Positions 2,926-60,500 are shown, counted from the first letter of the stretch. The stretch: 64,000 nucleotides of DNA from Malacoraja senta (GCA_038087875.1 CM075995.1:6450001-6514000); one strand, 5' to 3'. Translations and numbers: made by a program. The notes: generated by a model from the letters alone, not told the origin.

Positions 2926-5052
2926 CGGCCCAGCTTGCCCATGCCGACTAACATGTCCCATCTTCACTAGCCCCACCTGCCTGCGTTTGGCCCATATTCC
3001 TCTAAACCTGCCCTATCCATGTACCTGTCTAAATGTTTCTTAAATGCTGCGATAGTCCGTTCATACTCCCATCACCCTTTGTGTGAAAGAGTTGCCCCTC
3101 GGGTTTCTTTCAAATCTTTCCCCCCTCACTTTAAACCCATGTCCTCTAGTTCTTGCCAAAGATGGGCACAAAGAGTAACTCAGTGGGTCAAGCAGCATCT
3201 CTGGTGAAAAAGGACGGGTGACGTTTTTTGTCGGGACCCTTCTTCCAGACTGAAAGTACAAGATTGTTGAGTATATGGAACAAGCTGCCAGAGGAGGTAG
3301 TTGAGGCAGGGACTATCCCAATGTTTAAGAAACAGTTAGACAGGTACATGGATAGGACAGATTTGGAGCGATATGGACCAAACACAGGCAGGTGGGACTA
3401 GTGTAGATGGGACATGTTGTCCGTTGTGGGCAAATTGGGCTGAAGGGCCTGTTTCCATGTTGTATCACTCTATGACTCTAGAGTGGGGAGGGGGGGGGGG
3501 GGGCTCTGGTTCTTGATTCCCCCACTCTAGGCGAAAGACTATTCATCCTATTTAATGATCTTACACACAGTGCAGTCAGTACAGGTGATAGGTTTCCTGA
3601 TCTTTTTTTGAAAGTTTCACAGACTAAGTTTGGTGGCCACAATTAACAATTTAAATGTGCGAGGGCTGTTTGCCAGCAAGTAGCCAGGAGAGCGGAGGTG
3701 ATATTGAATGTTACTGATGGTTGTAGCATTCCGGTTGATCTGACATGTTGGTAGTTTACTGTTTGGGTCCCTGATCCCCACCGACACAGAGCCCCTTTGG
3801 TCCCTCAGTCCCCAAAGGGAAAAGGAGATATCTGTCTCTCCATGGATAGCACTCCTTTACATCCCAAATTCCCAGAGGAATTTCTATATGATTGTTTGAG
3901 AAGCAGAAGATAGACACGAGATGCTGGAGTAACTCAGCGTGTGGCCAAGCAGCACCAATGGATGGAAGGAATGGGTGACAATTTAGGTCGAGACCCTTCT
4001 TGAGAAGCAGAGATTAATGACGGCATGGTGGTGCAGAGGTAGAGTTGCTGCCCACATTGGGCCATTGTGGGCTCCACCCTTCCTGAAGTAATTTGTTTCC
4101 GGCCCTGGTTTGTTCTGGCCTTTTGTTGCTCCTAGTTCTCCCCCCCCCCACTCTCTTTCATTCTGAAGAAGGGACCCGACCCGAAATGTCACCCATCCTT
4201 TTTCTCTAGAGATGCTGCCTGACCCGCTGAGTTGCCCCAGCGTTTTGTATCTATCTGCTGCCTCACAGCGCCAGTTTGATCCTGACTACGGGTGCTGTCT
4301 GTACGGAGTTTGTACCTTTCTATCTATAATCATGTGGGTTTTCTCTGGGTGCTCCTCTTACACTCAAAAGACTTACGGGTTTCTAGGTTAATTGGCTTTG
4401 GTAAAATTATAAATTGGTCCTAATGTGTAGGATAGTGTTAGTGTACGGGGATCGCTGGTTGGCGCGGACTCGGTAGACCTGATTCCGTGCTGTATCTCTG
4501 AAGTCTAAAGTACAGCAAATGTGCATCCTGCCCCTTTTTTTGCACAATAATCTCTGATTAGGAATTTAAAGGGGGCTTTTATCTCAGAAGACCGAAGTCT
4601 CATTCCTTCTCAAAGATAATGAACCAGGTCAGAGCTGGCCAACATTACTCGATCATTGGTGTCAAACCAACTTCTTGTAAGGAAAATGTCGAATCAAGGA
4701 ATTGCAGATGCTGGTTTATACCAAAGATAGACACAAAGTGCTGGAGTAACTTGACGAGTCAGGCAACATCTCGAGAAAAAGGTCAGGTGACGTTTCGGGT
4801 CAGGATTCTGAAGAAGGGACCAGACCCGAAATGTTACCCATCCTTTCTCTCTAGAGTTGCTGCCTAACCAGCTGAGTCACTCCAGATTTTTGTGTCTTAT
4901 CTAAAAATACTGTGTCTCTTTCTCATAGGGAAATCAGTTATGTAAGTAAGTAAGTAAATATTATTTATATAGCACGTTGAAATCAACTCACATTGCTTTA
5001 CATAGAAAAAACAAAGTGCTTTACATAGAAAAAATAATTAAGTTGTGAGTTT

Positions 5053-5476
5053 TGTTTGAGAAAGAACTGCAGATGCTAGAACAATCGAAGGTAGACAGAA
5101 AATGCTGGAGAAACTCAGCGGGTGATGCAGCAACTATGGAGAGAAGGAACAGGCGACGTTTTGGGTCGAGACCCTTCTGCAGACTGATGTCGGGGTGGGG
5201 TGCGGGGAAATAAAAGGAAGTAGATGGAGACAGTAGTACTGTGGGAGAACTGGGAAGGGGGAGGGGAAGGAGGGAGAAAGCAAGGGCAATCTAAAATTAG
5301 AGAAGTCAATGTTCATACCACTGGGGTATAAACTACCCAAGCAAAATATGAGATGCTTTCCTCCAATTTGCACTGGGGCTCACTCTGGCAATGGAGGAGA
5401 CCCAGAACAGAAAGGTCAAATTGGGAATGGGAGGGGGAGTTGAAGTGCTGAGCAACCAGATGATCAGGTTGGTTAA
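5053..5476 (-). mobile_element. Penelope-like element 3' fragment (GIY-YIG C-terminus plus pseudo-LTR)
   Basis: Minus-strand HLIFCLGSLYPSGMNIDFSNF parallels HLIFRLGSLHPGSLNIEYSQF of the 7349 ORF; degenerate hammerhead motif at 5155-5182; flanking gtgagttt repeats at 5045 and 5477. Confidence 0.8.
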
Positions 5477-7198: not shown

Positions 7199-8123
7199 CA
7201 GGGAACGGGGGTTCCCCTCCTCCACCATAGATGAGGGTCTCTGCCATACCCCGCAACACTGCTCTCTCTCCCCATCCCCCCCACTCACAACAAGGGCAGA
7301 GTCCCCCTAGTCCTCACCTTTCACCCCACCAGCCGTCACATACAACAAGTGATCCTCCGTCAGTTTCGCCACCTCCAACGTGACCCCACCACTCGCCACA
7401 TCTTCCCATCTCCCCCCATGTCTGCCTTCCGCAAAGACCGCTCTCTCCGTAACTCCCTTGTCAATTATTCCCTTCCCTCCCATACCACCCCCTCCCCTGG
7501 TACTTTCCCTTGCAACCGCAAGAGATGCAACACTTGTCCCTTCACCTCCCCCCTCGACTCCATTCAAGTACCCAAGCAGTCGTTCCAGGTGCGACAGAGG
7601 TTCACCTGCATCTCCTCCAACCTCATCTATTGCATCCGCTGCTCTAGATGCCAGCTAATCTACATCGGTGAGACCAAGCGGAGGCTTGGCGATCGTTTCG
7701 CCGAACACCTCCGGTCGGTCCGCATTAACCAACTTGACCTCCTGGTGGCTCAGCACTTCAACTCCCCCTCCCATTCCGTATCTGACCTCTCTGTCCTGGG
7801 TCTCCTCCATGGTCACAGCGAGCAACACCGTAAATTGGAGGAAATGCACCTCATATTCCGCTTGGGCAGTCTACATCCTGGGAGCTTGAACATTGAATAC
7901 TCCCAATTCTGCTAGCCCTTGCTGTCCCCTCCCCTTCATCAGCCCTCTGGTTGTCTCCTCCCCTCACCCAGCCCTCAGGCTCCTCCTCCGCCTTTTTCCT
8001 TTTTTCCTTTCTTCTCCCCACCCCCTATCAGTCTGAAGAAGGGTTTCAGCCCGAAACGTTGCCTATTTCCTTCGCTCCATAGATGCTGCTGCACCCGCTG
8101 AGTTTCTCCAGCATTTTTGTGTA
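7199..8123 (+). mobile_element. Penelope-like retroelement, 5'-truncated, with GIY-YIG endonuclease and pLTR
   Basis: 14-bp TSD cctaggtttatctt at 7185-7198 and 8124-8137; GIY-YIG ORF; 3' end carries ctgaagaagggtttcagcccgaaacgtt. Confidence 0.92.
7349..7915 (+). pseudogene. Penelope GIY-YIG endonuclease domain, open over 188 aa but lacking the RT
   Basis: Cys-rich linker CNRKRCNTC, NLIYCIRC..CQLIYIGET (GIY-YIG), RLGDRFAEH, VAQHF. Confidence 0.9.
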
Positions 8124-11100
8124 CCTAGGTTTATCTTTGATTGGACTTTGCCTTGCACTGAATGGTATTCCCTTTATCATGTATCTGTACACTGCGAATG
8201 GCTTGATTGTAATCATGTACTGTCTTTCTGCTGACTGGATAGCACGCAACAAAAGCTTTTCACTGTACCTCTGTACACGTGACAATAAACTAAACTGATC
8301 TGATCTGATTCGTGTGTTGTGTGCGTGTGTCCGTGTGTGTGTGCGCGTGTCAGCATCTGCGGTCTCTTTTATCTTAATTGGTCATAGCCTATAAATATAT
8401 CATTGGTCAGCATTGAATAGTAATAAAGCTTTTTAGCAGTGTTTAAAGAATTGTTTCAACAAAGCATTGCCTTCATGTTAGCTCATAGGGCTAGCGGAAT
8501 CAAGGGATATGGGGAGAAAGCAGGAACGCGGTACTGATTGTCGATGATCAGCCATGATCATATTCAATGGCGGTGGCTCAAAAGACCAAATGACCTACTC
8601 CGGCACCTATTTTCTATGTTTGTGTGCCTGTCTGTCTGTGTGTGTGTGTGCGTGTCCGTGTGCGTGTATGTCTGTGTACGTGTCCCCGTGTGCGTGTGTC
8701 CATCCGTCCCGTCTTTGTGCCGTGTGTGTGTTTGGCACCATCTGTGCACTTGCTTGTGCCAGTCGCTGAGATTGTAAGAACTCCTTCAAAACTTCGGTTC
8801 CTCCTTTGGCTCTTGTGTTTCTTTTTCAAACTCCAATTGGCCAGACAGAGCCGCAGTGTTTCAGTCAAAGCGGTTGTGTATAAAAGGCACCATTCAGAGA
8901 CTCTTTTCCTTTTCTGTGGAAGTGAAAGGAGTGGAGCAGCCCCAGAGTGCACGCATTACACGGCATGCTTGGGCCTGCAAATATGCTTCAGTGCAGTTGT
9001 GCATGTCAACTTTTGGTGATCGCTTCAAAACTAAGGAGATTGAAGCCAGACAATCTGGTGTACGGGTTGGTCGGCACGGACTCTGTAGGCCTAAAGACCT
9101 GTTTCCGCGCTGTATCCATTCCTTCTCACCAGAGACGCTGCCTGTCCTGCTGAGTTACTCCAGCATTTTGTGTCTATCTTCGATATAAACCAGCATCTGC
9201 AGTTCTTTCCTACACAGTTTTAGTTTAGTTTAGTGTAGTTTGGAGACGCAACTTCGGCCCACCGAGTCCGCACCGACCAGCGATCCGCGCACATTAACAC
9301 TATTCTACACACACTAGGGACAATTTACATTTACACCAAGCCAATTAACCTACGAACCTGTACATCTTTGGAGTGTGGGAGGAAACTGGAGCACCTGGAG
9401 AAAACCCACGCAGGTCACAGGGAGAACATACATTCTCCATACAGACAGCACCCGTAGTCAAGATTGAACCCGGGTCTCTAGTGCCATAAGAAAGCAACTC
9501 TATCACTGCGCCACCGTTCCACCTTATACATGAACAAACTGCCAAATTCACCACACTATTCAATTTCTAGACAAGCCTCTTTACTATCAAGGAATCTTGA
9601 CACTGAGAGTGGGAAGGGAGGCATATTGAATGGTAGACACAAACTGCTGGAGCAACTCAGCGGGTTCGGCAGCATCTCTTGGAGAAAAAGAATGAGTGAC
9701 ATTTCAGGTCGGGACCCTTCCAACTGAGAGGTCAGGGGAAAGAGAAACGAAAGATATAGAAGGTACATTGAACAAATGAATGAAAGATATACAAAAAGCA
9801 ACGATGATCAAGGTAAGTCGGAGCCCACAATGGTCCATTGTTGGCGGTGGGGAAGGTGACCACGAGTGATACAAACAGTGAAACTCAGCACGACGACAGT
9901 GAAACTAGTACGACGACTAGAGTGGAAGGGGGACGAAGAGAGAGGGGATGCAAAGGTTACTAGAAGGCAGAGAAATCAATAGTCATACTGCTGGACTCTA
10001 CTAGGTTCTGTAGATTAAGTGGCTTCGGTAAAGATTATAAATTGTCCCCTGCATAGGATAGTGTTAGTGTGCGGGGATGTTTGGTCGGCGCGGACCTGGT
10101 GGGCCGAATGGGACAGTTTCCACCCTTTAAATCCAAACTTAACTAAATTTTTCTTAAAGCTTGCTAGATTAATCACTTCTTCAGAATTACGAACTGCTTT
10201 CTGTTACATGGGAGCCTTTTGTCGTCTCAACCTATTCCAATGATTCTCTTGTCTGAAGTTAGTTCACATTCATAAGTTCTAGGAGCAGAATTAGGCCATT
10301 CGGCCCATCGTCTACTCCACCATTCAATCATGGCTGATCTATCTTTCCCTCTCAACCCCATTCTCCTGCCTTCTCCCCATAACCCCTGACACCCGTACTA
10401 ATCAAAAATCTGTCAAACTCCACCTTAAAAATATCCTTTGACTTGGCCTCCACAACCCTCTGACTAAAGAAATTCCTCCTCATCTCCTTTCTAAAGGTGC
10501 GTCCTTTTATTCTGAGGCTGTGGCTTCTAGTCCTAGACTCTCCCACTAGTGGAAAAACCCTCTCCACATTCACTCTGTCCAGGCCTTTCAACTTGTATTT
10601 TTTCAGTTAGTTTTTTCATTATATATTTATTATAACAGGAATAGATCATTGTTTTTCTTGACGGAGGTTTATTGAACGCTAATAAGAAGCAGGTTTTCGC
10701 TGTTTATAGTGCAACTCAGTAATGGGATAAGCTGTGTTACTGAAATGCTAAAGTTTGCTGGTTAAGTTATTCTTTAGTTTAGTTTGGTGATACCGCACGG
10801 AAACAGGCCCTTCGACCCAGCTAGTCTGTGCTGACCAGTGATCACCCCGTACATCAGTACACACTAGGGGCAATTTACAGAAGTCAATTAACCTACAAAC
10901 CTATATGTGTTTAGGGTGTGAGAGGAAACCGGAGCACCCGGAGAAAACCCACGCAGGTCACGGGGAGACCGTACAAACACCATATGGACAGCACCCGTAG
11001 TCAGAATCAAACCCGGGTCTCTGGCGCTGTGAGGCAGCAACTCTACCGTCGTACGCCATTGTGCCGGGTTGCTGCAAAAGGCGATGATTTATGGCAGGTC

Positions 11101-14100
11101 ACAGAGCACAGAAACAGGCCCTGCATGTTCAGTCACACAGCACGGAAAGAGGCCCTTCAGCCCATCGCATCCATACTGACCAAGATGCCCCATCTAAGCA
11201 AGTCCCACCTGCCTGCATTTGGCCCATATCCTTCTAAACCTGTTCTAGGTTTAAAACTCTCTTGACTCTTGACTTGACGAGGCATGTACCTGTCCAAGTG
11301 TGTTTTAAATGCGTCGTCTTCCAATTCCCCCCTCTTCTGCCCTCCCTATAGTAACTTTGATGTCACGTGTACCAAGATGCTGTGAAATATTTTGTTTTGA
11401 ATGCATTTCAGTAAAATCTCACTACATAAGCACATCATACATAAGTAAAATAGTGCAATGATTGTAGTGTGTTTAAAAATATTTATATATCTGCTGATGC
11501 CGTACCGTGGTGCAGCAGTAGTGTTGCTGCCTTACAGCGCCAGAGTCCCTGACTACGGGTGATGCCTGTGCAGAGTTTGTAAGTTCTCCCCGTGACTTGA
11601 GTGGATTTTCTCCAGGATCTCCGGTTTCCACCCACATTCCAAAGACGTACAAGTTTGAAGGTTAATTGGCTTGGTATAATCATAAATTGTCCCCAGTGTA
11701 GGATAGTGTTAGTGTGCGGGGATCGCTGGTTGGCATGGACTCGGTGGGCCAAAGACACTATTTCGAGATACAGCGCGGAAACTGGCCCTTCAGCCCAACA
11801 AAACTAAACTAAACAATAACTTGAACAGCAACTTTACTATTTCAGAAACACAGCTTATCCCATTACCGAGTTGCCCTAGCACTACAAACAACTAAAACCT
11901 GTTTCTCATTAGTCATTAGTGACCTTGGTCAAGAAAAAAAATTAATTCCCATTATAATAAATACATAATGAGAAAACTAACGGAAAAAAATACTAGTGAA
12001 ATGCCTGGATAAAGTGCATGCGGAGAGGATGTTTCCACTAGTGGGAGAGTCTAGGATCAGAGGTCATAGCCTCAGAATTAAAGGACACACCTTCAGAAAG
12101 GAGATGAGATTTTTTTTAGGCTAATTGGCTTTGGTAAAATTGTACATTGCCCTTAGTGTGTGTGTAGGATAGTGCTAGTGTACGGGGATCGCTGGACGGC
12201 GCAGACTCGGTGGGCCGAAGGGCCTGTGTCTGCGCTGTATCTCTAAACTAAACTTAACTTTTCGAACTGAATTTGTGTTTGTTTATGTACTGCAGTGAGA
12301 CTCGAATGTGCCCTGAAATGTTCTTGCAATTTCTGGCCGATTATTGCCCTTTATTTAGTGGCAGCTTCCTTGTTGACAGGAAGTGTGCTGATCCAAACTC
12401 CCTGTGGCACATCTGGCATTTTGCCAACAGAATGCAGAGCTGCACCATTAAAATAGAAATCGCGGGAGGAGATATTTTTAAACTTGTCTAATTTTAGCTT
12501 CTCACTTAATCTCTCACATGCAAGGGACGCACTGAGTCATTGTTTGGTTTGTGCTTTGCTATTTACTGCTTTCGGTTTAGCAGCGTAATTTTTCTTCAAG
12601 TTTTTTGTGAGCGGTAGAGTTGTTGCCTCACAGCGCCAGTGACCCGGGTTCGACCCTGACTACGGGCGCTGTCTGTACAGAGTTTGTACGTTCACCCCGT
12701 GACCTGCGTGGGTTTTCCCCGGATGCTCCGGTTTCCTTCCACATTCCAAAGATGTACAGGGTTGTAGGTTAATTGACTTGGTATAAATGTAAATTGTGTG
12801 TTAGTGTTAGTGTGTGGGGATCGCTGGTTGGCATGGACTCGGGGGCCTGAAGGGCCAGTTTCCTCCCACACGCCAAAGACGTGTAGGTTAATTAACTTTG
12901 CAAATTGTCCCTAGTGTGTGTAGGGTAGTGCTAGTGTATGGGGATCGCTGGTCAGTGCGGACTCTGTGGGCTGAAGTCTCGGAACTAAACTAAACTTAAC
13001 TTCCTGCGCTCCTTTGCTCTTTCCTATCTCTGAAACCCTCAGCTGTTTGTGCACATGTCTCTTCATGTACAGAGTGACCGCAAGCTATCTATAATGGGCC
13101 ACGATAGTTAGGGCAGTGTTAACTATGCCTGGAAGTTTTATCAATACAAAGAAATGCAGGCATTGGTTTACAAAGAAATACACAGTGCTGGAGTAACAGT
13201 GGGTCGGGCAGCATCTCTGGAGAAACAAGGTATTGCAGATGCTTGTTTACCAAGGAAAGACAAAATTCGGGAGTATGAAAATGCACATCTCCAGATTCAG
13301 GGACAGTTTCTTCTCAGCTGTTATCAGGCAACTGAATCACCCTAGCACTAGATAGCAGTCCTGAACGACTATCTATATCATTAGTGACACTCGGACCATC
13401 TTCGATTGGACTTTACTGGCTTTACCTTGCACTAGACGTTATTCCCTTATTATGTATCTATTCACTGTGAATGGCTCGATTGTAATCATGTACTGTCTTT
13501 CCGCTGGCTGGATAGTACACAACAAATGCTTTTCACTGTACCTCTGTACACGTGACAATAAACTAAACTCAAAATAACTCAGCGGGTCAGGCAGCATCTC
13601 TGGATATACATGGATAGGTGACGTTTTGGGTTGGGACCCTTCTTCAGACTGATTGTAAGGGGAGGGGGAAGAAAACTGAAGAGCCCCTCATCTTTTCCAG
13701 CTTTCCTCTCTCCCATCCCCCCCCCCGCCCTCTCCTACACCCCCTGACCCGAAATATCATCTATCCACGTTCTCCAGGGTCTGCCTGACCCGTTGAGTTA
13801 CGCCTACACTTTGTGTCTATTCTAAAGAGGGATTTTTTTCTGCCTCTCGATTGATTGTCCTGAACTACTATCTACCTCATTGGTGACCCTTGGATTATCT
13901 TTGATCAGACTTTACTGGCTTTACCTTGCACTAAACATTATTCCCTTATCGTGTATCTGTACACTGTGAATGGCTCGTTTGTAATCACGTGTTATCTTTC
14001 CGCTGGCTGGTTAGCACGCAACAAAAGCTTTTCACTGTACCTTGGTACACGTGACAATAAACTGAACTGAACTGATGAGGGAGATACAGCGTGGACCATC

Positions 14101-17760: not shown

Positions 17761-20700
17761 GCAGGTCCCGAATGGATCTTTTCTGGTTAAATGGTTCTTT
17801 TATTGTCACTTGTACCAAGGGGTACATAGAACTAGTGTGAGTGATCGTTGGTCAGCTTGGCCACAGTGGGCCGAAGGGTCTTTTTGCCATGCTGTATCTC
17901 TAAACTAAAACTAAAGTATCCTGGGACTCATGACTCCTTTCCACGCAATACAAACTGACCTCACAACTTTATTGAGATTTGCAATTGCTCGTTATTCTTA
18001 AATGCACACGTGGATTTGTGTGATAATAAACCATAAAAAATGGTGATTTTCCTTCATAAGGAAAAGTAGAATTTGGCCATTCGGCTCATCAAGTCTACTC
18101 CGCCATTCAATCATGGCTGATCTATCTCTCCCTCCTCACCCCATTCTCCTGCCTTCTCCTCATAACCTCTGACACCCGTACTAATCAAGAATCTATCTAT
18201 CTCTGCCTTAAAAATATCCACTGTCTTTGCCTCCACAGCCTTCTGTGGCAACGAATTCCACAGATTCACCACCCTCTGACTAAATTATGGCATCTTGCCC
18301 TCTAAATGCAGATCTGATCCATGGGGATGACTGTAGAGAAGGATAGGGTGATGTTTCGGGTTGAGACCCTTCTTCAGACTGAGAATCAGGGGAAGAGTGA
18401 AACGAGAGGTCTAGTTTCCCTCTCTCCTGACAGGTTCTGTTCCTTTTCATACCTCTAGTTTCCCTCCCTTGACTAGCATGAAGAAGGGCCTCAACCCGAA
18501 TCATCACCTATTCCTCTACTCCAGAGGTGGTGCCTGACCTGCTGAGTTACTTCAGCATTTTATGTCTGTCTTTAATGTAAACCAGCATTGGCTATTCCAT
18601 CCTACACTTCCACCGTCACTCTCTGCTTCCTTCCAATTTTTTAATCCATTCAGCTATCTCTCCTTGAATCCCATGTGATCTAACCTTCCAGAACAGCCTA
18701 CCATGCAGAACCTTATCGAATGCTTTACTAAAATCCAAGTACACAACGTCTACAGCTCTGCCTGTAAATCTTAACATGATCTACACACACTAGGGACAAT
18801 TTACAATTATACCAAGCCAATTAACCTACAACCTGGTGGATTTTGTAGAGAGGGGAGGAAACTGGAGCACTCGGAGACAACCCACGCAGGTGACAGGGAG
18901 AACGTACAAACTCCGTACAGACAAGCACCCATGATCAGGTTCGAAACCCGGTTCTCTGGAGCTGTAAGGCAGCAACTGTACCGCTACACCACCATGCCGC
19001 CCAGTTACTCCGGCATTTTGTGTCTATCCCCGGAGATGACAGTTTGATGTTAGAAACATAGAAAATAGGTGCAGGAGTAGGTCATTCGGCCCTTTGATCA
19101 TGGCTATTCATTCTAAATCAATACCCCATTCCTGCTTTTCCCCCAATCCCTTGTTTCCGTTAGCCCTAAGAGCTAAATCTAACTCTTGAATACATCCAGT
19201 GAATTGGCCTCCACTGCCTTCTGTGGCAAAGAATTTACATAAATTCACAAATCTCTGGATGAAAAAGTTTTTCTTCGTCTCAGTCCTAAATGGCCTTCCC
19301 CTTATTCTTCCCCTTATTCTTAAACTGGACTCCCCCGTGGATTGGAATTTATCCGACATAAAACAATTGTTCTGTGCCAACAGGGTGGGAAATCAAAGAA
19401 ACTTGGCCCACTATTATCTTAATGTTATGCCTGAAAGCTGTTGGCCGCATTTCAAGAAAATTATTTATTACTGCTGGTGTATCATTGCTATTAACTTAAA
19501 TAGGCCTATTTCAAATGTCTCTTAATTGTCGTGAACCTATTTCATCTCTCTGGAAGGCACAAGATTCTCTGTCCATCCCTCAATCACTTCCTAAGGCAGC
19601 GTTGCGTTCTCTGTAGATTTAATAGAGCAAGCCCTTGTCTTGTTCACGGTGGCGGCACGGTGGTGCAGCAGTAGAGCTACTGCCTCTCATGGTAGAATTG
19701 CTGCCTTAGAGCGTTTGCTGCGCCAGTGATCCGGCTTCGAACCCGACTAGTTTTAGTTTAATTTTGAGATACAGCGCGGAAACAGGCCCCACCGGGTCCA
19801 CGACGACCAGCGATCCCCGCACATTAACGCTATCCTACACCCACTAGGGACAATTGGTACATTTACCAAGCCAATTAACCTACAAACCTGTACGTCTTTG
19901 GAATGTGGGAAGAAACCGAAGATCTCTGAGAAAACGGGGAGAATGTACAAACTCTGTATAGACAGCATCCGTAATCGGGATGGAACCTGGGCCTCCGGCG
20001 CTGCATTCGCTGAAAGGCAGCAACTCAACCGCCACGCCACCGTGACTGCGGGTGTTGTCTGTACGGAGTTTGTACGTTCTCCCTGTGACCTGCGTGGGTT
20101 CTTCTGAGATCTTCGGTATCCTCCCACACTTCAAAGACATACGCGTTGATAAGTTAATTGGCTCGGTATGAATGTACAATTGTCCCTTATATGTGTAGGA
20201 TAGTGTTATTGTGCAGGGATCGCTGGTTGGCGCGGACTCGGTGGGCCGAAGGGCCTGTTTCTGCGCTGTATCTCTAAACTAAACAGTGTTGCTTTCTCTG
20301 GAGGATTAATAGCCCAAGACCTTGTCTCTCTATTCAACTGAGGGCCTCTTGGCACTATTTGTAGAAAACCTTGGGGGAGTTTGTTTTGGCAGAAAAATAT
20401 GCTGCTTCAGCACCCTTGTTAGAAATGTTGCTAAGATTCATTTATCTTCTCGTCTCTTGATCCGTTGAATTAGTTGCCACAGACAGCTGCAGAGGCCGTC
20501 AATGACTATTTGTACCGTGGGGATTGATAGGTTCTTGATTATGTTCATGTGATAGGAGCAGTATTAGGCCATTCAGGCCCATCAAGTCTACTCCGCCATT
20601 CAATCATGGCTGATCTATCTCTCCCTCCTTACCCCCATTTTCCTGTCTTCTCCCCATAACCCCTGACACCCGTCCTAATCAAGAATCTATCTCTGCCACA

Positions 20701-30617: not shown

Positions 30618-30710
30618 AAAAAAATGAATTTAATCCATTTTTAAATAAGGCTGTAACGTAACAAAATGTGGAAACTGTGAAGGGTCTGAATACTTTCTGA
30701 ATGCACTGTA

Positions 30711-34135: not shown

Positions 34136-34180
<45 letters not shown>

Positions 34181-34684
34181 TTCTTGTTAGCAAACCAGCT
34201 TTGGGTTGGTGAAGATAGACACAAAATGCTGGAGTAACTCAGCGGATCAGGCATCATCTCTGGAGAAAAGGAATAAGTGGCGTTTCGGGTTGAGACCCTT
34301 CAGACTGAGAGTCTGGGAAAAAGGGGAACGAGAGACATAGTTTCAGTTTAGTTTATTGTCACGTGTTGTGTGCTAACCAGTCAGAGGAAAGACAATACAT
34401 GATTACAATCGAGCTATCCACAGTGTACTGATGCTGAGTCCGTGCCGGCCAGCAATCCGTAGAGGTAAATGCCGACCCCGAAATTTGCCATTACGAGGGG
34501 TGCCTTCATAACTGTGCAGGAAGGAACCGCAGATGCTGGTTGACACCGAAGATAGACACAAATTGCTGGAGTAAGTCAGTGGGTCAGGCAGCATCTCTGG
34601 AGAGAAGGAATATGTAGATGGGATATGTTAGCTGGTGTGGGCAAGTTGTGTTGAAGAGCCTGTATCAAACAGCTAACAATGGTC

Positions 34685-34822
34685 GGTAGACAAAGGTGCT
34701 GGAGAAACTCAGCGGGTGCAGCAGCATCTTTCCTTCGCACCATAGATGCTGCTGCACCCACTGAGTTTCTCCAGCACTTTTGTCTACCTTCGATTTTCCA
34801 GCATCTGCAGTTCCTTCTTAAA
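34685..34822 (+). mobile_element. Penelope pLTR-derived fold-back insert
   Basis: 14-bp TSD agctaacaatggtc at 34671-34684 and 34823-34836; 45-bp inverted arms at 34685-34729 and 34744-34788. Confidence 0.85.
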
Positions 34823-37800: not shown

Positions 37801-39570
37801 CAGCACCCTTAGTCGGGATCGAACCCAGGTCTCTGGCACGGCAAGCGCTGTAAGGCAGCAACTCTACCGCTGCGCCACCATGGCCATAGATGGAGTGTAT
37901 TTGTATTTTAAGAAGGCTTTAGCAGTGGCACGGTGACGTCTTTGGAGTGTGGGAGGAAACCGGAGATCTTGGAGAAAACCCACGCTGGTCTGGGGGAGAA
38001 CGTACAAACTCTGTACACACAGCACCCGTAGTCAGGATCAAACCCGGGTCTCTGGCGCTACAAGGCAGCAACTCTACCGCTGCGCCACCGTCTCTCGATT
38101 CACTAAATTATGGCGCTGTGTCTCGACCCGAAACATCACCCATTCCTTCTCTCCAGAGATGCTGCCTGACTTGCTGAGTTAGTCCAGCAGGATGTGTGTC
38201 TATCTTCGGTATATACCAGATTTTGCAATTCCTTTCTGCACAACCTACAAACCTGTACATCTTTGGAGTGTGGAAGGAAACAGGAGCACCCAGAGAGAAA
38301 TGCACGCAGGTCACACGGAGAACGTACAAACCCCGTACAGACAGCCCCCTTAGTCAGGATGGAACCCGTGTGTCTGGTGCTGTGAGGCAGCAACTCTACC
38401 GCTGCGCCACCGTGCCGCTCCTGGTGTGAGTGAGGCTCAGTGCTCCTGCCTTCCTGTATGGCACAATGCAGCTTAGGTACCTGCTCCACTGTTCTAAATT
38501 CATCTAAAGCCGTCTGAACTGCAGCTTTAAGCAAAGCGTGCAGTAATTCCGTTATCTCTATCCTGCAGCGTGATTCTTATTATTGTCATGGCATCTTCTG
38601 AGTTCCACCTAACAGTGCACCCTCAGTGTCGTACTTTGTAAAATCATGTTTCACTCTTTGTACCGATTTATAACTCGGCAAAGTGCAATAGGAAGCAAGG
38701 TGTCATAATCACACGACAATCAGTCTGCTACTTTTGATGTGTTGTCGCTGTTACGTAGGCCAGTATTGAAGGCAATACCGTAACATAAGGGCCCTATGTG
38801 GCGGCACGGTGGCGCAGCAGTAGAGTTGCCGCCTCACAGCGCCAGAGACCAGGGTTCCATCCTGACTACAGGTGCTGTCCGCACGGAGTTTGTATGTTCT
38901 CCCCGTGACCTGCGTAGGTTTTCACCAAGATCTTCGGTTTTCTCCCACACTCCAAAGACGTGCAGGTTTGTAGGTCAATTGGTTTCGGTAAAAATTGTAA
39001 ATCAAGTATCAAGTATCCTTTAATGTCATTCAGACTTTTCAGTCTGAACGAAATTTCTAAATTGTCCTGAGTGTGCAGGATATCGCTTGTGTACGGGGTG
39101 ATCGCTGGTAGGCTAGGACACGGTGGGCTGAAGAGCCTGCTTTCGCGCTCTATCTATAAACTAAACTAAACTGACCCTTCGGCCCAATTTGTCCATGCTG
39201 ATCAAAATACGGGTGCTTAGTTTAATTTAGTTTAGAGATACAGACACTTGGGCCCACCAAGCCTGCGCCACACACACTATCACTATCCTACGCACACTGG
39301 GGACAATTTAACCAAGCCAATTAACCTACAAACTTGTAAATCTTTGGAGTGTGGGAGGAAACCCACGCAGTCACAGGGAGTAGGTACAAACTCCTTACAG
39401 ACAGCACCCGTAGTCAGGATCGAACCTGGGTCTTTAGCGCTGTAAACCAGCAACTCCACGCTGCACCACCGTACCGCCCAGGACCGGATCTATCTGTACG
39501 AAGTTTTTACGCTCGGCTCGTGACTGCGTGTATTTTTGCCGGGTGCTCCGGTTTCCTCCCACACTCCAAA

Positions 39571-45630: not shown

Positions 45631-46204
45631 ATATTCAAAGTCCAAAGTCCGGTCGGCCCGCGGGCTCGATATGCTGGAGCAGTTCCCGCGAACCGACGTC
45701 CCTCTCCTCTCCTCTCGCCCGGCCATCTTTGTGTCTCGGGGGCAACTCCTGCAGCTGACCGTGAAGGCGCTGGAGGCATCACCCCGGTACACCCTCCAAC
45801 CCGGCACTTGCCCGTCGCGTCCCACGCCTCCAGCTCCCTCCCGGTTACGCCGACCCACGAGCCTTTGGTTTAATTTAGTTTATTATTGTCACGTGAACCG
45901 AGGTACAGTGAAAAGCTTTTATTTGCGTGCTATCGAGTCAAAGAAAAGACTGTAAGTGATTATTCTCAAGCTGCCCACAGTGTGCCGATTCGGGCGGGTT
46001 CCCGGTCCTACGGACCGACGAGCCTTCAGGTGGGTTCCCAGTGCCAGCCACCTGCGGGCTGGACATACGGTGTGCGTGAGGTTGCAGCCCCTGTTCCAGT
46101 ATCTAAAGAGGCTGCTGGGACAGCTGGGCACTGCGGGGGGTGGAATGAATCCTTAATAAGGATGGGGAAATAGTTGTATAGTAGTAGATTTAGTATTGAA
46201 GAAT

Positions 46205-46630: not shown

Positions 46631-46942
46631 CCGGTGTGGGCGAGTTGGGCCGAAGGGCCTGTTTCCACACTGTATCTATGACCCAAGGGAAAATTTACAG
46701 AGGCCAATTAACCCACATCCTTTGAGATGTGGGACAAAACTGGAGCCCCCGGAGAGAAAACATGCGGTCACGGAGTGAACATGCAGACTCCATACAGACA
46801 GCACACAAAGTAATTGGAGCTGTGAGGTGGCAGCTCTAAATTACTGTTGTCATAAATTTGAGTCAATGTTGGCGCTTTCTGTGGAAACTGTTTCTATACT
46901 TCAAGCAAGTTTCTATACTTCAATAAAACAATAACATGATGT

Positions 46943-47066
46943 GTAAGAAAAACTGCAGATGCTGGTTTAAATCGAAGGTAGACACAAAATGCTGGAGTAA
47001 CGCAGGCAGCATCTCTGGAGAGAAGGAATGGGTGACGTTTCGGGTCGAGACCCTTCTTCAGACAAC
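46943..47066 (-). mobile_element. Minimal Penelope pLTR insert (~120 bp) starting at the hammerhead core
   Basis: TSD aacatgatgt at 46933-46942 and 47067-47076; contains the full motif at 47034-47061. Confidence 0.85.
47034..47061 (-). ncRNA. Minimal type I hammerhead ribozyme motif (Penelope type)
   Basis: Minus strand CUGAAGA-A-GGGU(CUCG)ACCC-GAA-ACGU-C: conserved CUGAnGA and GAAA boxes, helix II, palindromic ACGU helix III, GUC cleavage triplet. Helix I is only ~2 bp and activity is untested. Confidence 0.7.
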
Positions 47067-47253: not shown

Positions 47254-47428
47254 CACAGAGTGCTGGAGTAACTCAGCGGGTCAGGCATCATCTCTGGAGA
47301 ACATGGATAGGTGACGTTTCACAGAGTGCTGGAGTAACTCAGCGGGTCAGGCAGCATCTGTGGAGAACGTGGATAGGTGGCGTTTCACAGAGTGCTGGAA
47401 TAACTCAGCGAGTCAGGCAGCATCTCTG
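47254..47428. repeat. 66-bp minisatellite (~2.7 units) derived from the Penelope pLTR
   Basis: Units begin cacagagtgctgga at 47254, 47320 and 47386. Confidence 0.92.
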
Positions 47429-47814
47429 ACTCAGTCTGAAGAAGGGCCTTGACCCGAAACGTCACCCATTCCTATCCAGAGATGATGCCTGCCCCGCTGA
47501 GTTACTCCAGCATTTTGTGTCTAGTTCACGATTATGCATTGTCTGGGAAGTTTTGCTGGCTTTGCTCCGAGTTGTTTTGCTTGCTTTAAATTTACAACAT
47601 TAAGGCCGTCGACAAAATACTGAATAATTCCCGACACATGTGGGAGATATCTAAAGACTAAAATTTATTCCACCCGTTAAAACAATACACCTCCTCCGCT
47701 GATGCAGTGATCACATCCCTCAATTCCTTTAGACACTGACAGACCAGACACTATGAGATGAAGATATAAAGGAACTGCAGATGCTCAAATCTTCAGCAAA
47801 ACACACAAAGTCTA

Positions 47815-52066: not shown

Positions 52067-53802
52067 AAGTGTGTTCAGGGTGAGAGGGAAAAGATTTAAG
52101 AGAAAGGTAGACACAAAGTGCAGGAGTAACTCAGCGAGACGGGCAGTATCTCTGGAGAGAAGGAATGGGTGACGTTTCGAGTCGAGACCCGTCTTCAGAC
52201 TCGGGTCTGTCTGAAGGGTCTCGACCCGAAACCTCACTCATTCCTTCTCTCCAGAGATGCTGCCTGTCCCGCTGAGGTACTCCAGCATTTTGTGTCGACC
52301 AAGGAACTGTAGGTGCTGGCTTACAAAAAAAAAACGCAAAGTGTCGGAGTATCTCAGCGGGTCTCTGGAGGACAATGTTGATAACCGTTCACCAAAATTG
52401 GAAACTTTCCAGCATTTTCCTTTCCTTTCAGATTTCCAATGGCTGTATTTTTTTTCCGCTTCAACTAATCCTGCTCAGAATGGTTTGTAGTTTAGTGTAG
52501 TACATCGTTCATCTGCGTTTCATTGTTGACATTAAACAAATGTATTTTTGTCAGGGAATTTTTATCCTGCATGGTTTGGGAAAGAATAGTTTGGTTTAAA
52601 ATGAACGCAACGCCCGGTTTCATTTGGAAGTGCAGGAATGATTATGTTGTTTAGTTTAGAGATACAGCACGGAAACAGGCCTTTCAGCCCACCGAATCCA
52701 CACCAACCAGCAATCCTCGCACACTAACACTATCCAACACACATAAGAGACAATTTTACATTTATACCAAGCCAATTAACCTGCAAACCTGTTTAAGAAA
52801 GAACAGCAGATGCTCGAAAAATCAAAGGTAGACAAAAATGCTGGAGAGACTCAGCGGGTGAGGCAGCATCTATGGAGAGAAGGAATAGGAATAGTCGAGA
52901 CCCTTCTTCAGACTCTACAAACCTGTACGTCTTTGGAGGAAACTGAAAATCTTGGAGAAAACCCACGCAGGTCACAGGGAGAACGTAAAACTCCGTACAG
53001 ACAGTACCCATAATCAGGATTGAATCTGGGTCCCTGGCACTGTGAGGCTGCAGCTCTACCATTGCACTAAGGGTGCAACTGCATATACTGGTTTAAATCG
53101 AAGATGAACATAAAGAGCTGGAGTAACTGAGTGGGACAGGCAGCATCTCTGGAGAGAAGGAATTAGTGACGTTTCAGGTCGAGACCCTTCTTCTGGCTGG
53201 ACCAGACTTCAGACTGGTTTGAAGAAGAGTCTCGGCCAGAAATGTCACCTATTCCTTTTTTCCAGAGATGCTGCCTGTCCTGCTTTGTTACTCCAGCATT
53301 TTGTGTCTTTCTTCGATTTAAACCAGCGTCTGCAGTTGCACCCTTACTTACCAGCCACCACCGCAAGTAGGCTGGTGTGATTTGTGGTAAGAAGCTGATT
53401 CTTGTAGAGTCATACAGTGAGTAAACAGGCCCTTCGGCCCAACTTGCCCACACCAGCCAACACGTCCCAGCTACACTAGTCCCTCCTGCCTGCGTTTGGC
53501 CCATAACCCTCCAAACCTGTCCTATCCATGTACCTGTCTAAGTACGTTGTGATAGTTCCTGCCTCAACTATCTCCTCTGGCAGCTTGTTCCATACACCCA
53601 CCACTATTTGTGTGAAAAAGTAACCACTCAGATTTTCTATTAAATCTTTTCCCCTTCAACCTATGTCCTCTGGTTTTCAATTTCTCTACTCTGGGCAAGG
53701 GACTCTGTGTATCTAACCAATCTATTCTATGTTAGGGATGCGCAAAACTGTAACGCCAAAGAAAATGTTGTAGCATTCGCACCGGCGCGGTGTCGCAGCG
53801 GC

Positions 53803-54663: not shown

Positions 54664-54852
<189 letters not shown>

Positions 54853-55009: not shown

Positions 55010-55970
55010 TATAGATAGAAACTAGAAAATAGGTGGAGGAGGAGGCCATTTGGCCCTTCGAGCCAGCACCTGCCATTCATTGTGATCATGGCTGATCATC
55101 CACAATCAGTAACCCGTGCCTGCCTTCTCCCCATACCCATTGATTCCACTAGCCCCTAGAGCTCCATCTAACTCTCTTTTAAATTCATCCAGTGAATTGG
55201 CCTCCACTGCCCTCTATGGCAGAGAATTCCACAAATTCACAACTCTCTGGGTCACAGTTTTAAATGGCCTCCCCTTTATTCTTAGACGGTGGCTTCTGGT
55301 TCTGGACTTCCGCAACATTGGGAACATTTTTCCTGCATCTAGCTTGTCCAGTCCTTTTATGATTTTATATGTTTCTATAAGATACCCTCTCATCCTCCTA
55401 AATTCCAGTGAATATAAGACTAGCCTTTCCAATCTTTCCTCATATGACAGTCCCGCCATCCCAGGGATGAATCTCGTGAACCTACGCTGTACTGCCTCAA
55501 TAGCAAGGATGTCCTTGCTCAAATTAGGAGACCAAAACTGTACACAATACTCCAGATGTGGTCTCACCAGGGCCCTGTACAACTGCAGAAGGACCTCTTT
55601 GCTCCTATACTCAACTCCTCTTGTTATGAAGGCCAACATGCCATTAGCATTCTTCACTGCCTGCTGTACCTGCATGTTTACTTTCAGTGACTGGTGTACA
55701 AGGACACCCAGGTCTCGTTGCGTTTCCCTTTTTCCTAATCTGACACCATTGAGATAATAATCTGCCTCCATGTTCTTGCCGCCAAAGTGGATAACCTCAC
55801 ATTTAACTACATTATACGGCATCTGCCATGCATCTGCCCACTCACTCAACCTGTCCAAGTCACCCTGCACCTCCTAACATCCTCTTTGCAGTTCACACTG
55901 CTACCCAGGTTTGTGTCATCTGCAAATTTGCTAGTGTCACTTTTAATTCCATCATCTAAATCATTAATAA
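55010..55970 (-). mobile_element. CR1 LINE RT/3' fragment
   Basis: 218-aa open frame QGDLDRLSEWADAWQM...RPHLEYCVQFWSP...QRVVNLWNSLP. Confidence 0.92.
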
Positions 55971-56528: not shown

Positions 56529-56588
<60 letters not shown>

Positions 56589-57568: not shown

Positions 57569-60500
57569 TATCTCGAAACCTGTCCTATCCATGTACCTGT
57601 CCAAAGGTCTTTTAAATGTTACTAAAGCACCTGCCTCAAGCACGTCCTCTGGCAGCTTGTTCCATACACCCACAACCCTCTGTATGGAAAAAAGTTGCCC
57701 CTCGGGTTCCTATTAAATCCGGATTCCCCTACTCCGGATCATATGGTCATAAGTGATAGGAATAGAATTAGGCTATTCGGCCCATCAAGACTACTCCGCC
57801 AATCAATCATGGCTGATCTATCTCTCCCTCCGAACCGCATTCTCCTGCCTTCTCCCCATAACCCCTGACACCCGCACTAATCAAGAATCTTATCCCTCTC
57901 TTCTGTAAAAATATCCACTTGGCTTTCACAGCCTTCTGTGGCAAAGAATTCCACAAAGTAATCAATAGATAACATAGAGAGATGGATGGATAGGTAGACA
58001 CAAAAAGCTGAGTAACTTAGCTGGACAGGCAGCATCTCTGGAGAGAAAGAATGGATGAAGTTTCGGGACGAGACCCCTTTTCTGACGCTGGACAGATGGA
58101 TGGTTGGAAGGATAGAAGAATAGGATAGATAGATAGATAGGATAAATGGATAATATTAGAACAAAGCAATATTAGAACAAAGCAAAAGCCTGAAGTCCCC
58201 GGTATAACTAAGGCAGCTTGTAGTTCAGAGTTGGTGCTTAATTTCTGTATTTTGTTGTCCTTGGTTGGAATATTTTTCATTACAAAAAATATTTGAGGTA
58301 TTTGTTGCTCAATAGTTTCTGGTGCAAGTTCCAACAACCTGCTGCATAGAGTGCTCAACTCTTCTTATTGTGGTTGTTTTAAATCCGATCACTCTCTTGT
58401 CCAACCAGAGGAAATATGCCTTCAGTGTTCCCTTCAACAAAGGGTATGGCAGCGGTAGAGCTGCTGCTTCAAAGCACCAGAGACCCGGGTTCGATCCTGA
58501 CCACAGGTGCTGTCAGTATGGAGTTTGTACGTTCTCCCCGTGACCTGTGTTGGTTTTCTCCGGGTGCTCCGGATTTCTCCCACACTCCAAAGACCGTACA
58601 GATTTGTGAGTTAATTAGCTTTCATAGATTATAGACAATAGACAATAGGTGCAGGAGTAGGCCATTTGACCCTTCGAGCCAGCACCGCAATTCAATGTGA
58701 TCATGGCTGATCATCCCCAATCAGTACCCCGTTCCTGCCTTCTCCCCATATCCCCTGACGCCGCTATTTTTAAGAGCCCTATCTAGCTCTCTCTTGAAAG
58801 CATCCAGAGAACCTGCCTCTGAGGCAGAGAATTCCACAGACTCACCACTCTCTGTGAGGAAAAGTATTTCCTCGTCTCTGTTCTAAATGGCTTACTCCTT
58901 ATTCTTAAACTGTGGCCCCTGGTTCTGGACTCCCCCAACACCAGGAACATGTTTCCTGCCTCTAGTGTGTCCAAGCCCTTGTTTCAATGAGATGCCCTCT
59001 CATCCTTCTAAACTCCAGAGTGTACAAGCCCAGCTGCTCCATTCTCTCAGCATAATCCCTGGTATCTTGGGATAACGGGTGATTGTGGGTCGGCACAGAC
59101 TCGGTGGGCCGAATGGCCTGTTTCCACGCTGCTCCTGTAATACTAAACCAAACAGGATTTTAAAACAGGAAATACAAGTGAGGGTATAACTCAATAATTA
59201 ACATATGCACAGAGTCTCTTGCCCAGAGTAGGGGAATCGAGGACCAGAGGACACAGGTTTAAGGTGAAGGGGAAAAGATTTAATCGGAACCTGAGGGGTA
59301 ACCTTTTTCACACAAAGGGTGGTGGGTGTATGGAACGGGCTGTCAATAGAAGTAGTTGAGGCTGGGACTATTACAACGTTTAAGAAACAGTTAGACAGGT
59401 ACGTGGATAGGATAGATATGGAGGGATATGGGCCAAACGTAGGCAGGTGTGACTAGTGCACATGGGACATGTTGGCTGGTGTGGGCAAGTTGGGCCGAAG
59501 TGCCTGTTTCCATGCTGTATGAGTCTATGACTCTATAACAATGCGTTGAAAAGGCATAGAATGAGCTATTGATAAAAAATTGGCTCCAAGCCCAACGGAT
59601 AACTCGATTTGCAACCGAGTTTGTGCATTCCTTGGTATAAACCCTTGTTCGCATTCAGTGTGGATCAAAGGATAGCCCTGAAATTCAAACTCTAAACCCG
59701 CTGAAAGTGTCCTTGATTCATCCTCCAGGGACTGATCGTTCTCTGTAGCTTGTATGTATTCAGCTGTTACCTTGGGCGCGTCACTGACTGAAGCCAAATT
59801 CATTTAGTTTAGTTTACTTTAGCGATACAGCATGGAAACAGGCCCTTCGGCCCACCGAGTTAACACCCACCAGCGATCCCCGCACATTAACGCTACCCCA
59901 CACACACTAGGGACAAATTACATTTATACCAAGCCAATTAACCTACAAACCTTTACGTCTTTGGAATCTGGAAGGAAACTAGAGATCCCGGAGAAAACCC
60001 AGGCAGGTGACGGGGAGAACGTACAAACTCCGTACAGACAGCACTCTTAGTCGGGATCAACCCGGGTCCCTGGCGCTGCGAGGCAGCAACTCTACCGCTG
60101 CGCCACTGTGCCCCCAATGTGTTGCGATGCCCAAATCATTAATGATATAATGAGTACAGATCATGATTGGATTCCACACCGTTTGAATCGGAGTCATATA
60201 TGCTTCATACTCATTCGACCCGCTGATCGGCCGAGGAAGTCCCGATGAGGTCGAGATCGGCCGCCTAACCCTGCCTGGATGCCACATTTACGGGGGGGAG
60301 GCTTCCAGAAGGGATATCAAGTGAGCGGTCACGATGGCGCAGCGGTAGAGTTGCTGCCCTACAGCGAATGCAGCGCTGGAGACCCGGGTTTGATCCTGAC
60401 TGTCTGTACGGAGTTTGTGATCTGTCTGGGTTTTCTCCGAGATCTTTGGTTTCCTCCCACACTCCAAAGACGTACAGGTTTGTAGGTTCATTGACTTGGT

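What the first reader, a model, noticed from the sequence alone, without database searches (positions are those of the whole stretch)
3170..58090. Dense family of Penelope-derived micro-elements carrying a minimal hammerhead ribozyme motif
Seen: the motif CTGAAGAAGGGTCTCGACCCGAAACGTCACC, or close variants, recurs about 20 times. + strand copies lie near 4163, 4808, 8033, 18479, 34916, 47436, 52211 and 53219; - strand copies near 3220, 3978, 4789, 5155, 9698, 13620, 18350, 34280, 47034, 52171, 53169 and 58057. It parses as CUGAnGA / extra A / helix II GGGU-loop-ACCC / GAA / palindromic ACGU / C cleavage site. Several variants change only the helix II loop (CUCG, CUCA, CCCA). The same end terminates the GIY-YIG-coding element at 7199-8123. 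Established: Penelope-like element pLTRs carry minimal type I hammerheads with a palindromic helix III thought to cleave as dimers. Inference: this genome has a very high-copy non-autonomous, retrozyme-like PLE family. Sense-strand copies put potential self-cleavage sites into the jarid2 pre-mRNA, where nearby copies could dimerise. Helix I is only ~2 bp, so many or all copies may be inactive.
Basis: partly seen in the sequence, partly recalled or inferred. Interest (0 to 1): 0.8.

Follow-up and report, generated by a model that had tools for sequence, protein, structure and literature searches.

The report
Penelope retrotransposon ends carrying hammerhead ribozymes
The repeated motif is the short right-hand end of Penelope-type jumping genes, which carries a minimal self-cutting RNA motif and lies about 60,000 times with an intact core in this genome; the arrangement is known from other animals, the copies inside the jarid2 gene are likely inactive passengers, and the one unexplained feature is that many copies begin right at the first bases of the motif.

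Summary
In detail: 22 copies in the window, including all 20 listed; 13,276 exact and 60,090 intact-core copies genome-wide; controls 0. The motif is the minimal type I hammerhead described for Penelope-like element (PLE) pLTRs. The core is invariant and helices I and II covary across PLEs 41-65% identical in protein. The parents are autonomous Neptune/Nematis-type PLEs of this genome; one locus has an intact 1213-aa RT + GIY-YIG ORF. The copies are 95-145-nt element ends (ribozyme plus RT-initiation 'tail'): solo, inverted head-to-head, or running on into the ORF. They are not a retrozyme family: no ribozyme-bearing tandem array lies in the window and ends avoid the cleavage site, although such arrays exist elsewhere. 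The jarid2 idea is unsupported: 74 sense against 69 antisense copies, only 4 of 22 window copies fully intact, close pairs opposite-stranded, and the core predicted to misfold. Not found in the papers searched: 5' ends pile up at the ribozyme's first base pairs (15 of 30 young copies, about 48-fold), most with target-site duplications. This points to a defined RNA end or an RT stop. Verdict: new member of a known kind; moderate interest.

The parts
3156..3256 (-). PLE end, degenerate ribozyme motif at 3217-3247
3906..4005 (-). PLE end starting at the motif edge, 10-bp TSD, core broken
4155..4256 (+). PLE end, core letters kept, ACGU palindrome and a helix II pair changed
4696..4902 (.). head-to-head pair: inverted copy 4696-4801 (-) joined to forward copy 4807-4902 (+)
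5040..5355 (-). longer PLE end: GIY-YIG ORF end, 3' UTR, motif 5152-5182 (core broken), tail
7199..8126 (+). 5'-truncated young PLE (family B): GIY-YIG ORF fragment 7235-7915, 3' UTR, intact motif 8033-8063 (GUU site), short tail
9110..9222 (+). PLE end that begins behind the ribozyme, with full tail
9623..9725 (-). PLE end, degenerate motif 9695-9725; upstream resembles PLE 3' UTR by eye
13560..13660 (-). PLE end, motif 13617-13647 (core broken)
18331..18607 (.). head-to-head pair 18331-18382 (-) and 18473-18607 (+), both with 3' UTR remnants
34211..35063 (.). cluster of six PLE ends on both strands, including an inverted pair at 34675-34822 without the motif; motifs at 34276 (-), 34916 (+), 35033 (-), all degenerate
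38110..38242 (+). PLE end starting inside helix II, full tail
46921..47063 (-). type copy: exact motif 47031-47061, starts at the foot of helix I, full tail, 15-bp TSD; antisense to jarid2
47254..47428 (-). tandem array of a 66-bp PLE-end piece (2.7 copies) that lacks the CUGAnGA half of the core
47431..47523 (+). PLE end with intact core (47436-47466), joined head-to-head to the 66-bp array
52103..52300 (.). head-to-head pair: 52103-52205 (-, intact core) and 52205-52300 (+, core broken)
52785..52914 (-).
53077..53337 (.). head-to-head pair 53077-53199 (-) and 53214-53337 (+), cores broken
57992..58086 (-). PLE end, degenerate motif 58054-58084
54664..54770 (+). jarid2 exon 2 (approximate bounds); the rest of the window is jarid2 intron 1 and intron 2

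Best explanation
These are the 95-145-nt terminal-repeat ends (minimal hammerhead motif plus 'tail') of several autonomous Penelope-like retrotransposon subfamilies of this genome, likely inserted by the parents' own reverse transcriptase-endonuclease from uncleaved RNA, and likely silent as ribozymes inside host introns. Shown: identity with the ends of RT + GIY-YIG elements, two preferred 3' ends, a sharp 5' edge at the first base pairs of the motif, target-site duplications, inverted pairs, and covariation of the ribozyme helices across distant PLEs. Inferred steps: (1) The PLE protein binds the tail and starts cDNA synthesis there, as shown in vitro for the anole Poseidon element (PMC11167929). 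(2) It copies through the uncut ribozyme. (3) In young family-B copies about half of the events end at positions -1 to -7. The most likely cause (about 50%) is that part of the template RNA pool itself begins there, at an initiator-like TCAGT start or by 5'-to-3' trimming to the protein-bound motif. An RT stall (about 30%) or fold-back at the local palindrome alone (about 20%) are the alternatives. (4) The cDNA end joins the target by microhomology, or folds back to give head-to-head copies. (5) The ribozyme is under selection only in the master elements, where it likely cuts with help from the PLE protein or as a dimer. Inserted copies decay neutrally.
For: Parent: L118 has an uninterrupted 1213-aa ORF from its first Met, with RVT_1, GIY-YIG and a CX4CxxC linker. 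L119 has motifs at 3252 and 7321 around a 4069-bp unit, with the ATG at +164. The GIY-YIG protein search gave 104,423 first-look candidates and 150 of 150 scored at 94-100% identity. In most GIY-YIG ORF ends found in 1.32 Mb, a motif follows 82-330 nt downstream. Of 292 motif copies, 96 run on into the 3' UTR, 93 are solo, 90 inverted, 12 tandem and 1 unclassed. 3' ends peak at +88 to +100 and +139 to +143, the PLE 'tail' pattern (PMC8557442, PMC11167929). 5' ends: in the unselected 464 kb, 78 of 226 lie at -6 to +2 and 11 of 226 at +28 to +32. Of 30 young copies, 15 end at -1 to -7, a stop rate about 48 times the upstream rate. TSDs of 7 nt or more occur in 10 of 12 non-inverted short copies against 2 of 132 mismatched pairs. 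Ribozyme: 11 of 22 distant PLE loci with at least 250 nt downstream carry the motif; those printed lie about 90-140 nt behind the ORF. In 16 aligned motifs the core is invariant; 83.6% of cells pair, 30 cells change on both sides, 0 of 500 shuffles reach this, and slid registers give at most 49%. Silence in jarid2.
Against: No cleavage, transcription start or RNA end was measured. No Rfam hammerhead model hits the window at E <= 10. 11 of 22 distant loci showed no match to the strict pattern; some carry mutated motifs by eye. The 16 aligned motifs include related sequences, and the structure was named from them (caveat). A pure 'RNA starts here' model is weakened: among 22 copies whose 3' end lies 190-285 nt into the 5' UTR/ORF start, 8 begin at the edge but 8 run 96 nt or more upstream. 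TSDs are rare in the older mixed sample (13 of 198). Re-mobilisation of short copies (SINE-like) cannot be excluded, because 1.08 Mb is 0.06% of the genome. The jarid2 strand test covers one gene.
Confidence: 0.8

Rival explanations
1. A self-propagating non-autonomous (SINE-like) micro-element. Solo copies carry an internal start at the motif edge, are transcribed as ~100-150-nt RNAs and are re-inserted by PLE protein in trans.
For: Sharp 5' edge with TSDs. CAGT is kept before the motif in subfamilies whose 3' UTRs differ. PLE pLTRs hold internal TATA-less promoters (PMC2377424 passages) and an Inr-like sequence (PMC3846280 passages). pLTRs suffice for mobilisation in trans (PMC3846280 passages).
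Against: Short young copies share an identical 64-nt stretch with the parents' ends and mirror the parents' subfamilies. The edge is ragged over about 7 nt and also appears in copies that run on into the ORF (11 of 48). An all-against-all comparison of the upstream 80 nt of 374 copies gave only PLE 3' UTR and inverted-copy clusters.
Confidence: 0.2
2. One reading: a retrozyme-like family that self-cleaves as dimers, circularises, and can cut jarid2 pre-mRNA.
For: The motif is a conserved hammerhead. A perfect 384-bp array with one motif per unit (13 listed units) exists elsewhere in the genome. Ten same-strand neighbour pairs lie within 500 bp in 464 kb.
Against: No motif-bearing array in the window. 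Ends do not map to the cleavage site. No strand bias in jarid2. Predicted helix I probability is at most 0.018 and the core is sequestered by the downstream pyrimidine run, with the ribozyme-compatible fold 1.2-12.3 kcal/mol above the best fold. Published minimal PLE hammerheads show no monomer activity and low dimer activity (PMC4209133), need the PLE protein (PMC11167929), and 8 of 9 Xenopus dimers did not cleave (bioRxiv 2026.07.22.740005).
Confidence: 0.1
3. The 5' edge is a splice acceptor. The polypyrimidine run and CAG before the motif are a 3' splice site, and short copies come from spliced or back-spliced RNA.
For: The Drosophila virilis Penelope intron ends at the 5' end of helix I (PMC4209133). 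Letter frequencies before solo copies (G 59 of 76, then A 34 of 59) resemble exon ends (consensus recalled).
Against: The predicted joint with the one candidate donor at about +160 of family B has 0 genomic matches. No shared exon-1 sequence was found. TSDs abut the edge directly. Inverted copies have the same edge.
Confidence: 0.07

Closest known systems
[quoted passage not shown]
   Same: [quoted passage not shown] Mostly single motifs from truncated PLEs, and opposite-strand pairs 100-700 bp apart.
   Different: Scale: 60,090 intact cores here against about 4,000 (coelacanth) and 9,000 (X. tropicalis) there, with different descriptors, and up to 120,000 canonical motifs in the far larger axolotl genome (section title in PMC7229834). 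Helix I is only about 2 bp and helix II 4 bp. The parts read do not describe a pile-up of 5' ends at the motif edge.
Neptune/Nematis-type EN+ Penelope-like elements (features as in PMC8557442)
   Same: RT plus C-terminal GIY-YIG, CX2-5CxxC linker, partial tandems, inverted 5' copies, optional tail, heavy 5' truncation.
   Different: The ORF is long (1213 aa, proline-rich N-terminal part) against about 700-1100 aa for most homologues. Clade not fixed by a tree.
Poseidon_Ac of Anolis (Frangieh et al. 2024, PMC11167929)
   Same: Tail ends about 95-145 nt behind the ribozyme start, and copies that retain an uncut ribozyme, fit RT initiation in the tail on unprocessed RNA.
   Different: There the ORF starts inside helix II; here the ATG lies at +164, behind the tail. 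Activity was shown there, not here.
Non-LTR retrozymes (PMC7229834; bioRxiv 10.64898/2026.07.22.740005)
   Same: pLTR-derived, type I hammerhead. Arrays of this kind exist elsewhere in this genome (384-bp unit), and the preprint reports retrozymes in one chondrichthyan.
   Different: Window copies are monomers or inverted pairs with a minimal motif, not tandem units bounded by cleavage sites.

Membership tests
PLE minimal type I hammerhead | catalytic core CUGAnGA ... GAAA ... UH | tested here: met
   invariant in 16 of 16 aligned motifs; 60,090 genomic matches; but only 7 of 22 window copies keep it
PLE minimal type I hammerhead | unpaired nucleotide before helix II and G10.1-C11.1 pair | tested here: met
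   A in 16 of 16; G-C in 16 of 16
PLE minimal type I hammerhead | palindromic ACGU in place of helix III | tested here: met
   15 of 16 aligned motifs
PLE minimal type I hammerhead | helices I and II supported by compensatory change | tested here: met
   inner helix I pair 16 of 16 paired with 5 pair types, next pair 14 of 16; helix II 96.9% paired; outer two helix I pairs weak
PLE minimal type I hammerhead | located in the pLTR of a PLE | tested here: met
PLE minimal type I hammerhead | self-cleavage as dimer or with protein | not testable with these tools
   folding predicts the core sequestered in monomers; no assay
EN+ PLE, Neptune/Nematis type (parent) | single ORF with RT and C-terminal GIY-YIG | tested here: met
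   L118: RVT_1 E 1.4e-4, GIY-YIG E 1.4e-3, both under the curated cut-offs; 683 homologues at E <= 1e-20 among 8000 scored
EN+ PLE, Neptune/Nematis type (parent) | CX2-5CxxC linker and CCHH motif | tested here: met
   read directly in the translation; definition from PMC8557442 passages
EN+ PLE, Neptune/Nematis type (parent) | pLTRs, partial tandems, inverted 5' copies, optional tail | tested here: met
EN+ PLE, Neptune/Nematis type (parent) | RT phylogeny placing it in Neptune rather than Nematis | not tested
   no named reference sequences were in hand
non-LTR retrozyme | head-to-tail repeats of 150-450 nt, each with a hammerhead | tested here: not met
   window: the only PLE-end array is 66 bp x 2.7 without the core; 12 of 292 sampled copies are tandem; met elsewhere at L239
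non-LTR retrozyme | unit ends set by self-cleavage | tested here: not met
   5 of 611 5' ends at +29; 11 of 226 at +28 to +32
non-LTR retrozyme | abundant circular RNA | not testable with these tools
   no raw RNA reads were available
distinct non-autonomous SINE-like family | fixed 5' end and TSD | tested here: met
   15 of 30 young copies within 7 nt; TSD in 10 of 12
distinct non-autonomous SINE-like family | own diagnostic sequence, separate from autonomous copies | tested here: inconclusive
   none seen, but the young copies were picked for an identical 64-nt stretch and the sample is 0.06% of the genome
distinct non-autonomous SINE-like family | own promoter or transcription start | not testable with these tools
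   initiator-like letters only (consensus recalled)

The most novel reading that the evidence does not exclude
The foot of the hammerhead defines the 5' end of a PLE RNA (a transcription start, or an exonuclease stop at the protein-bound ribozyme). The PLE RT, starting in the tail, then makes a ~100-145-nt run-off 'strong-stop' cDNA that is integrated by itself. This would make the ribozyme a template-boundary element rather than only a cutter, and would be a route by which one PLE lineage has seeded a vertebrate genome with about 60,000 intact and several hundred thousand decayed hammerheads.
Probability: 0.35. Interest if true: 0.65.

Novelty: new member of a known kind. Interest (0 to 1): 0.4.

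Why it matters
The function of PLE hammerheads is an open question (PMC8557442 passages; PMC11167929 finds cleavage dispensable in vitro). This genome offers a very large natural sample, with young, intact parents. Insertions keep the uncut ribozyme, which supports the view that unprocessed RNA is the template. The sharp 5' edge is a measurable clue to where PLE RNA starts or where the RT stops. One intact core per 32 kb also allows a powerful genome-wide test of whether minimal hammerheads ever harm host pre-mRNA; jarid2 gives no sign of it.

Tried and rejected
Rfam scan of the window at E <= 10: 16 weak matches, no hammerhead family. Back-splicing or ORF-skipping from the candidate donor at about +160: 0 genomic matches for the predicted joint, family B only. 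Fold-back at the alternative hairpin register as the main source of inversions: 101 genomic matches against 530 for the palindromic joint at the motif edge; inner ends of inverted arms are spread, mostly -10 to +39. Alternative cleavage after the upstream GUC at +1: rejected by inspection, since helix I cannot pair and ends lie upstream of it. A cap-derived extra G before A(-3): not seen (G in 4 of 34 solo copies). Excess conservation of the core within the genome: non-CpG deviation 0.069 against 0.133 downstream in 127 copies (p 5e-4), but copies were chosen for spanning the motif and downstream holds subfamily-diagnostic sites, so this is given little weight. RNA: no RNA holder listed. Four contig runs (three guessed RNA, from other organisms) laid on L119 show loose ends at -6 to -2 and in the tail, but contigs cannot show starts, strand or level, and most rows were not shown. 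RNA ends on the window copies themselves remain unexamined. DNA around the closest protein homologues (P0002 and following) was not obtained; distant metagenome loci served instead. PDB search of the parent protein: no match. Earlier findings of this scan: nothing in three look-ups. The organism was not determined; the repeat content suggests a cartilaginous fish (recalled, not tested).
Full report
Observation. The 31-mer occurs 22 times in the window at up to 9 mismatches. In the 1.94-Gb genome there are 13,276 exact copies and 60,090 matches to a pattern demanding an intact core, three G-C pairs and ACGU-H; reversed controls gave 0. In 464 kb around the window there are 146 copies at up to 8 mismatches, against 0 in five shuffles. 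That density would extrapolate to about 600,000, a rough figure from one region. The window is intragenic: jarid2 lies on the + strand from window -79 kb to at least +153 kb.

What the copies are. Each motif is followed by a shared body and ends at +88 to +100 or +139 to +143, counting the C of CUGA as +1 (611 copies in 1.08 Mb, of which 83 are exact matches largely chosen as such). Of 292 copies with a recognisable motif start, 96 continue upstream into PLE 3' UTR, 93 are solo, 90 follow an inverted copy, 12 are tandem and 1 is unclassed. Upstream sequences fall into several subfamilies that share the motif and body but differ in the 3' UTR. Most GIY-YIG ORF ends found in 1.32 Mb are followed by the motif 82-330 nt later; 14 rows showed none. 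The protein of 7235-7915 found 104,423 first-look candidates, and the 150 scored are 94-100% identical. L118 holds an uninterrupted 1213-aa ORF with RT, a CX4CxxC linker and GIY-YIG. L119 has motifs on both sides of a 4069-bp unit, with the ATG at +164. These are the features of Neptune/Nematis-type PLEs, including the optional tail and inverted 5' copies (PMC8557442 passages; PMC3846280 passages).

Is it a hammerhead? Rfam finds nothing, which is unsurprising for a motif without helix III (inference). Among 80 metagenome loci encoding related PLE proteins, I examined the 27 whose match reached or neared the ORF end. Of these, 22 had at least 250 nt downstream, and 11 of the 22 carry the motif by a strict pattern. 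I aligned 4 motifs of this genome with 12 from those loci, leaving out mutated, longer-loop and near-duplicate ones. The core, the extra A and G10.1-C11.1 are invariant. Of all cells 83.6% pair and 30 change on both sides; 0 of 500 shuffles reach this, and slid registers give at most 49%. Helix I is solid for two pairs only. The motif is thus the min-HHR of Cervera and de la Pena (PMC4209133; parts 1-2 of 4 read). That paper already reports thousands of solo motifs from truncated PLEs, opposite-strand pairs, no monomer activity and low dimer activity. Its supplement file 2 names no shark or skate; file 1 could not be searched.

Retrozyme? Non-LTR retrozymes are tandem repeats with a hammerhead in each unit (PMC7229834 passages; bioRxiv 10.64898/2026.07.22.740005, parts 1-3 of 5 read, supplements not seen). 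The preprint finds them in one chondrichthyan and derives them from pLTRs. In the window the only PLE-end array is 66 bp x 2.7 and lacks CUGAnGA. 5' ends avoid the cleavage site: 5 of 611 lie at +29 and 11 of 226 at +28 to +32 in the unselected region. A perfect 384-bp array with the motif exists elsewhere, so the genome has retrozyme-like loci, but they are not this finding.

Effect on jarid2. Within the 232-kb gene there are 74 sense and 69 antisense copies (p 0.74), and 7 sense and 9 antisense intact cores. Four of 22 window copies are fully intact, two of them sense (8033, 47436), 39 kb apart. All 7 neighbour pairs within 500 bp in the window are opposite-stranded; in 464 kb, 25 of 35 are. 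Such pairs would form duplexes (inference). In 7 copies at 4 lengths, predicted helix I probability is at most 0.018, and the ribozyme-compatible fold lies 1.2-12.3 kcal/mol above the best fold. In most cases the downstream pyrimidine run pairs with the core. A dimer held by helix II and trans ACGU (-12.7, helix I not counted) is weaker than two monomers (-16.6). The anole PLE ribozyme cleaves only with PLE protein, and unprocessed RNA is the main RT substrate (PMC11167929, parts 1-2 of 4 read). This is one gene and a prediction, not a measurement.

The unexplained part. 5' ends pile up at the foot of helix I. In the unselected region 78 of 226 lie at -6 to +2, against 11 in the 30 positions from -49 to -20. 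Among the first 30 exact young family-B copies, 15 end at -1 to -7 (mode -2), one at -13, and 14 run 81 nt or more upstream; the stop rate is about 48 times higher at the edge. Leaving out three inverted copies, 10 of 12 short copies have TSDs of 8-17 nt, against 2 of 132 mismatched pairs, so they are primary insertions. In the older mixed sample TSDs are seen in only 13 of 198, against 0-3 in shuffles. The same edge occurs in 11 of 48 copies that continue into the 5' UTR or ORF, in 530 palindromic junctions, and as loose ends in contigs of four other runs (weak). An RNA 5' end there is my leading reading: pLTRs hold internal promoters (PMC2377424 passages), and CAGT is kept across subfamilies. 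But 8 of 22 copies that must derive from a 5' pLTR run further upstream, as many as stop at the edge (8), so read-through templates or a stall must also be allowed. A splice origin failed its one test. I found no description of this edge in paper searches or in the texts read. Lunse et al. 2016 was not available and is known to me only through PMC6765202 passages; subscription papers and Repbase entries were not searched.

Verdict. The feature is real and correctly parsed, and it is a new member of a known kind. The retrozyme and jarid2-cleavage readings are not supported. The scale and the 5' edge give moderate interest (0.4).

Noticed in passing
L239 (G000:C1:28902285-28907178): Perfect 384-bp tandem array (13 listed units, 100% matches in the part scanned), each unit with an intact family-B hammerhead: a retrozyme-like locus and the best candidate for circular RNA. 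Pattern hits at 275, 254 and 165-bp spacing elsewhere on C1 were not examined.
   Followed up: partly
L227:796-2333: Perfect 138-bp x 11 array of the PLE tail whose unit lacks the ribozyme core and rejoins at about the cleavage site; may reflect template jumping or a cleaved RNA end.
   Followed up: no
L118:2318-5992 (-): Intact 1213-aa PLE ORF with a long proline-rich N-terminal region of short repeats; the family is young (94-100% identical copies) and may be active.
   Followed up: partly
L294 and L308 (5' junctions): Short duplications of the first 9-11 nt of the motif between the TSD and the element, suggesting RT re-priming at the template 5' end.
   Followed up: no
window 47254-47428; L062 near 5031: 66-bp arrays that join the body to the GAAAC half of the core; probably behind the second 5'-end peak at +21 (46 of 611).
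   Followed up: no
window 28449-30197 (+): 582-aa ORF with RVT_1 and zf-RVT, the 3' part of an L1-like ORF2, in jarid2 intron 1.
   Followed up: partly
window 27425-27999 (-): Broken Tc1-like transposase (HTH_Tnp_Tc3_2, E 7.6e-7).
   Followed up: partly
window 475-1504, 24457-25115, 43564-44083, 55113-55873, 61148-63034: Many CR1-like LINE fragments (RVT_1 hit at 62375-63031) and tRNA-like SINEs; family names recalled, not tested.
   Followed up: no
window 8267-8296, 14039-14071, 16636-16665, 34338-34366, 35566-35606, 41130-41162, 41584-41622, 45870-45904: Another abundant short repeat that begins after TTTAG microsatellites; not identified.
   Followed up: no
L155, L165, L189, L198 (- strand): A different hammerhead-like motif with a long helix II and no extra A, antisense to PLE ORFs in four metagenome contigs.
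   Followed up: no
jarid2 exon 1, 79 kb upstream of the window (L018): N-terminus reads MTRERPKRNII, slightly different from the recalled vertebrate form.
   Followed up: no
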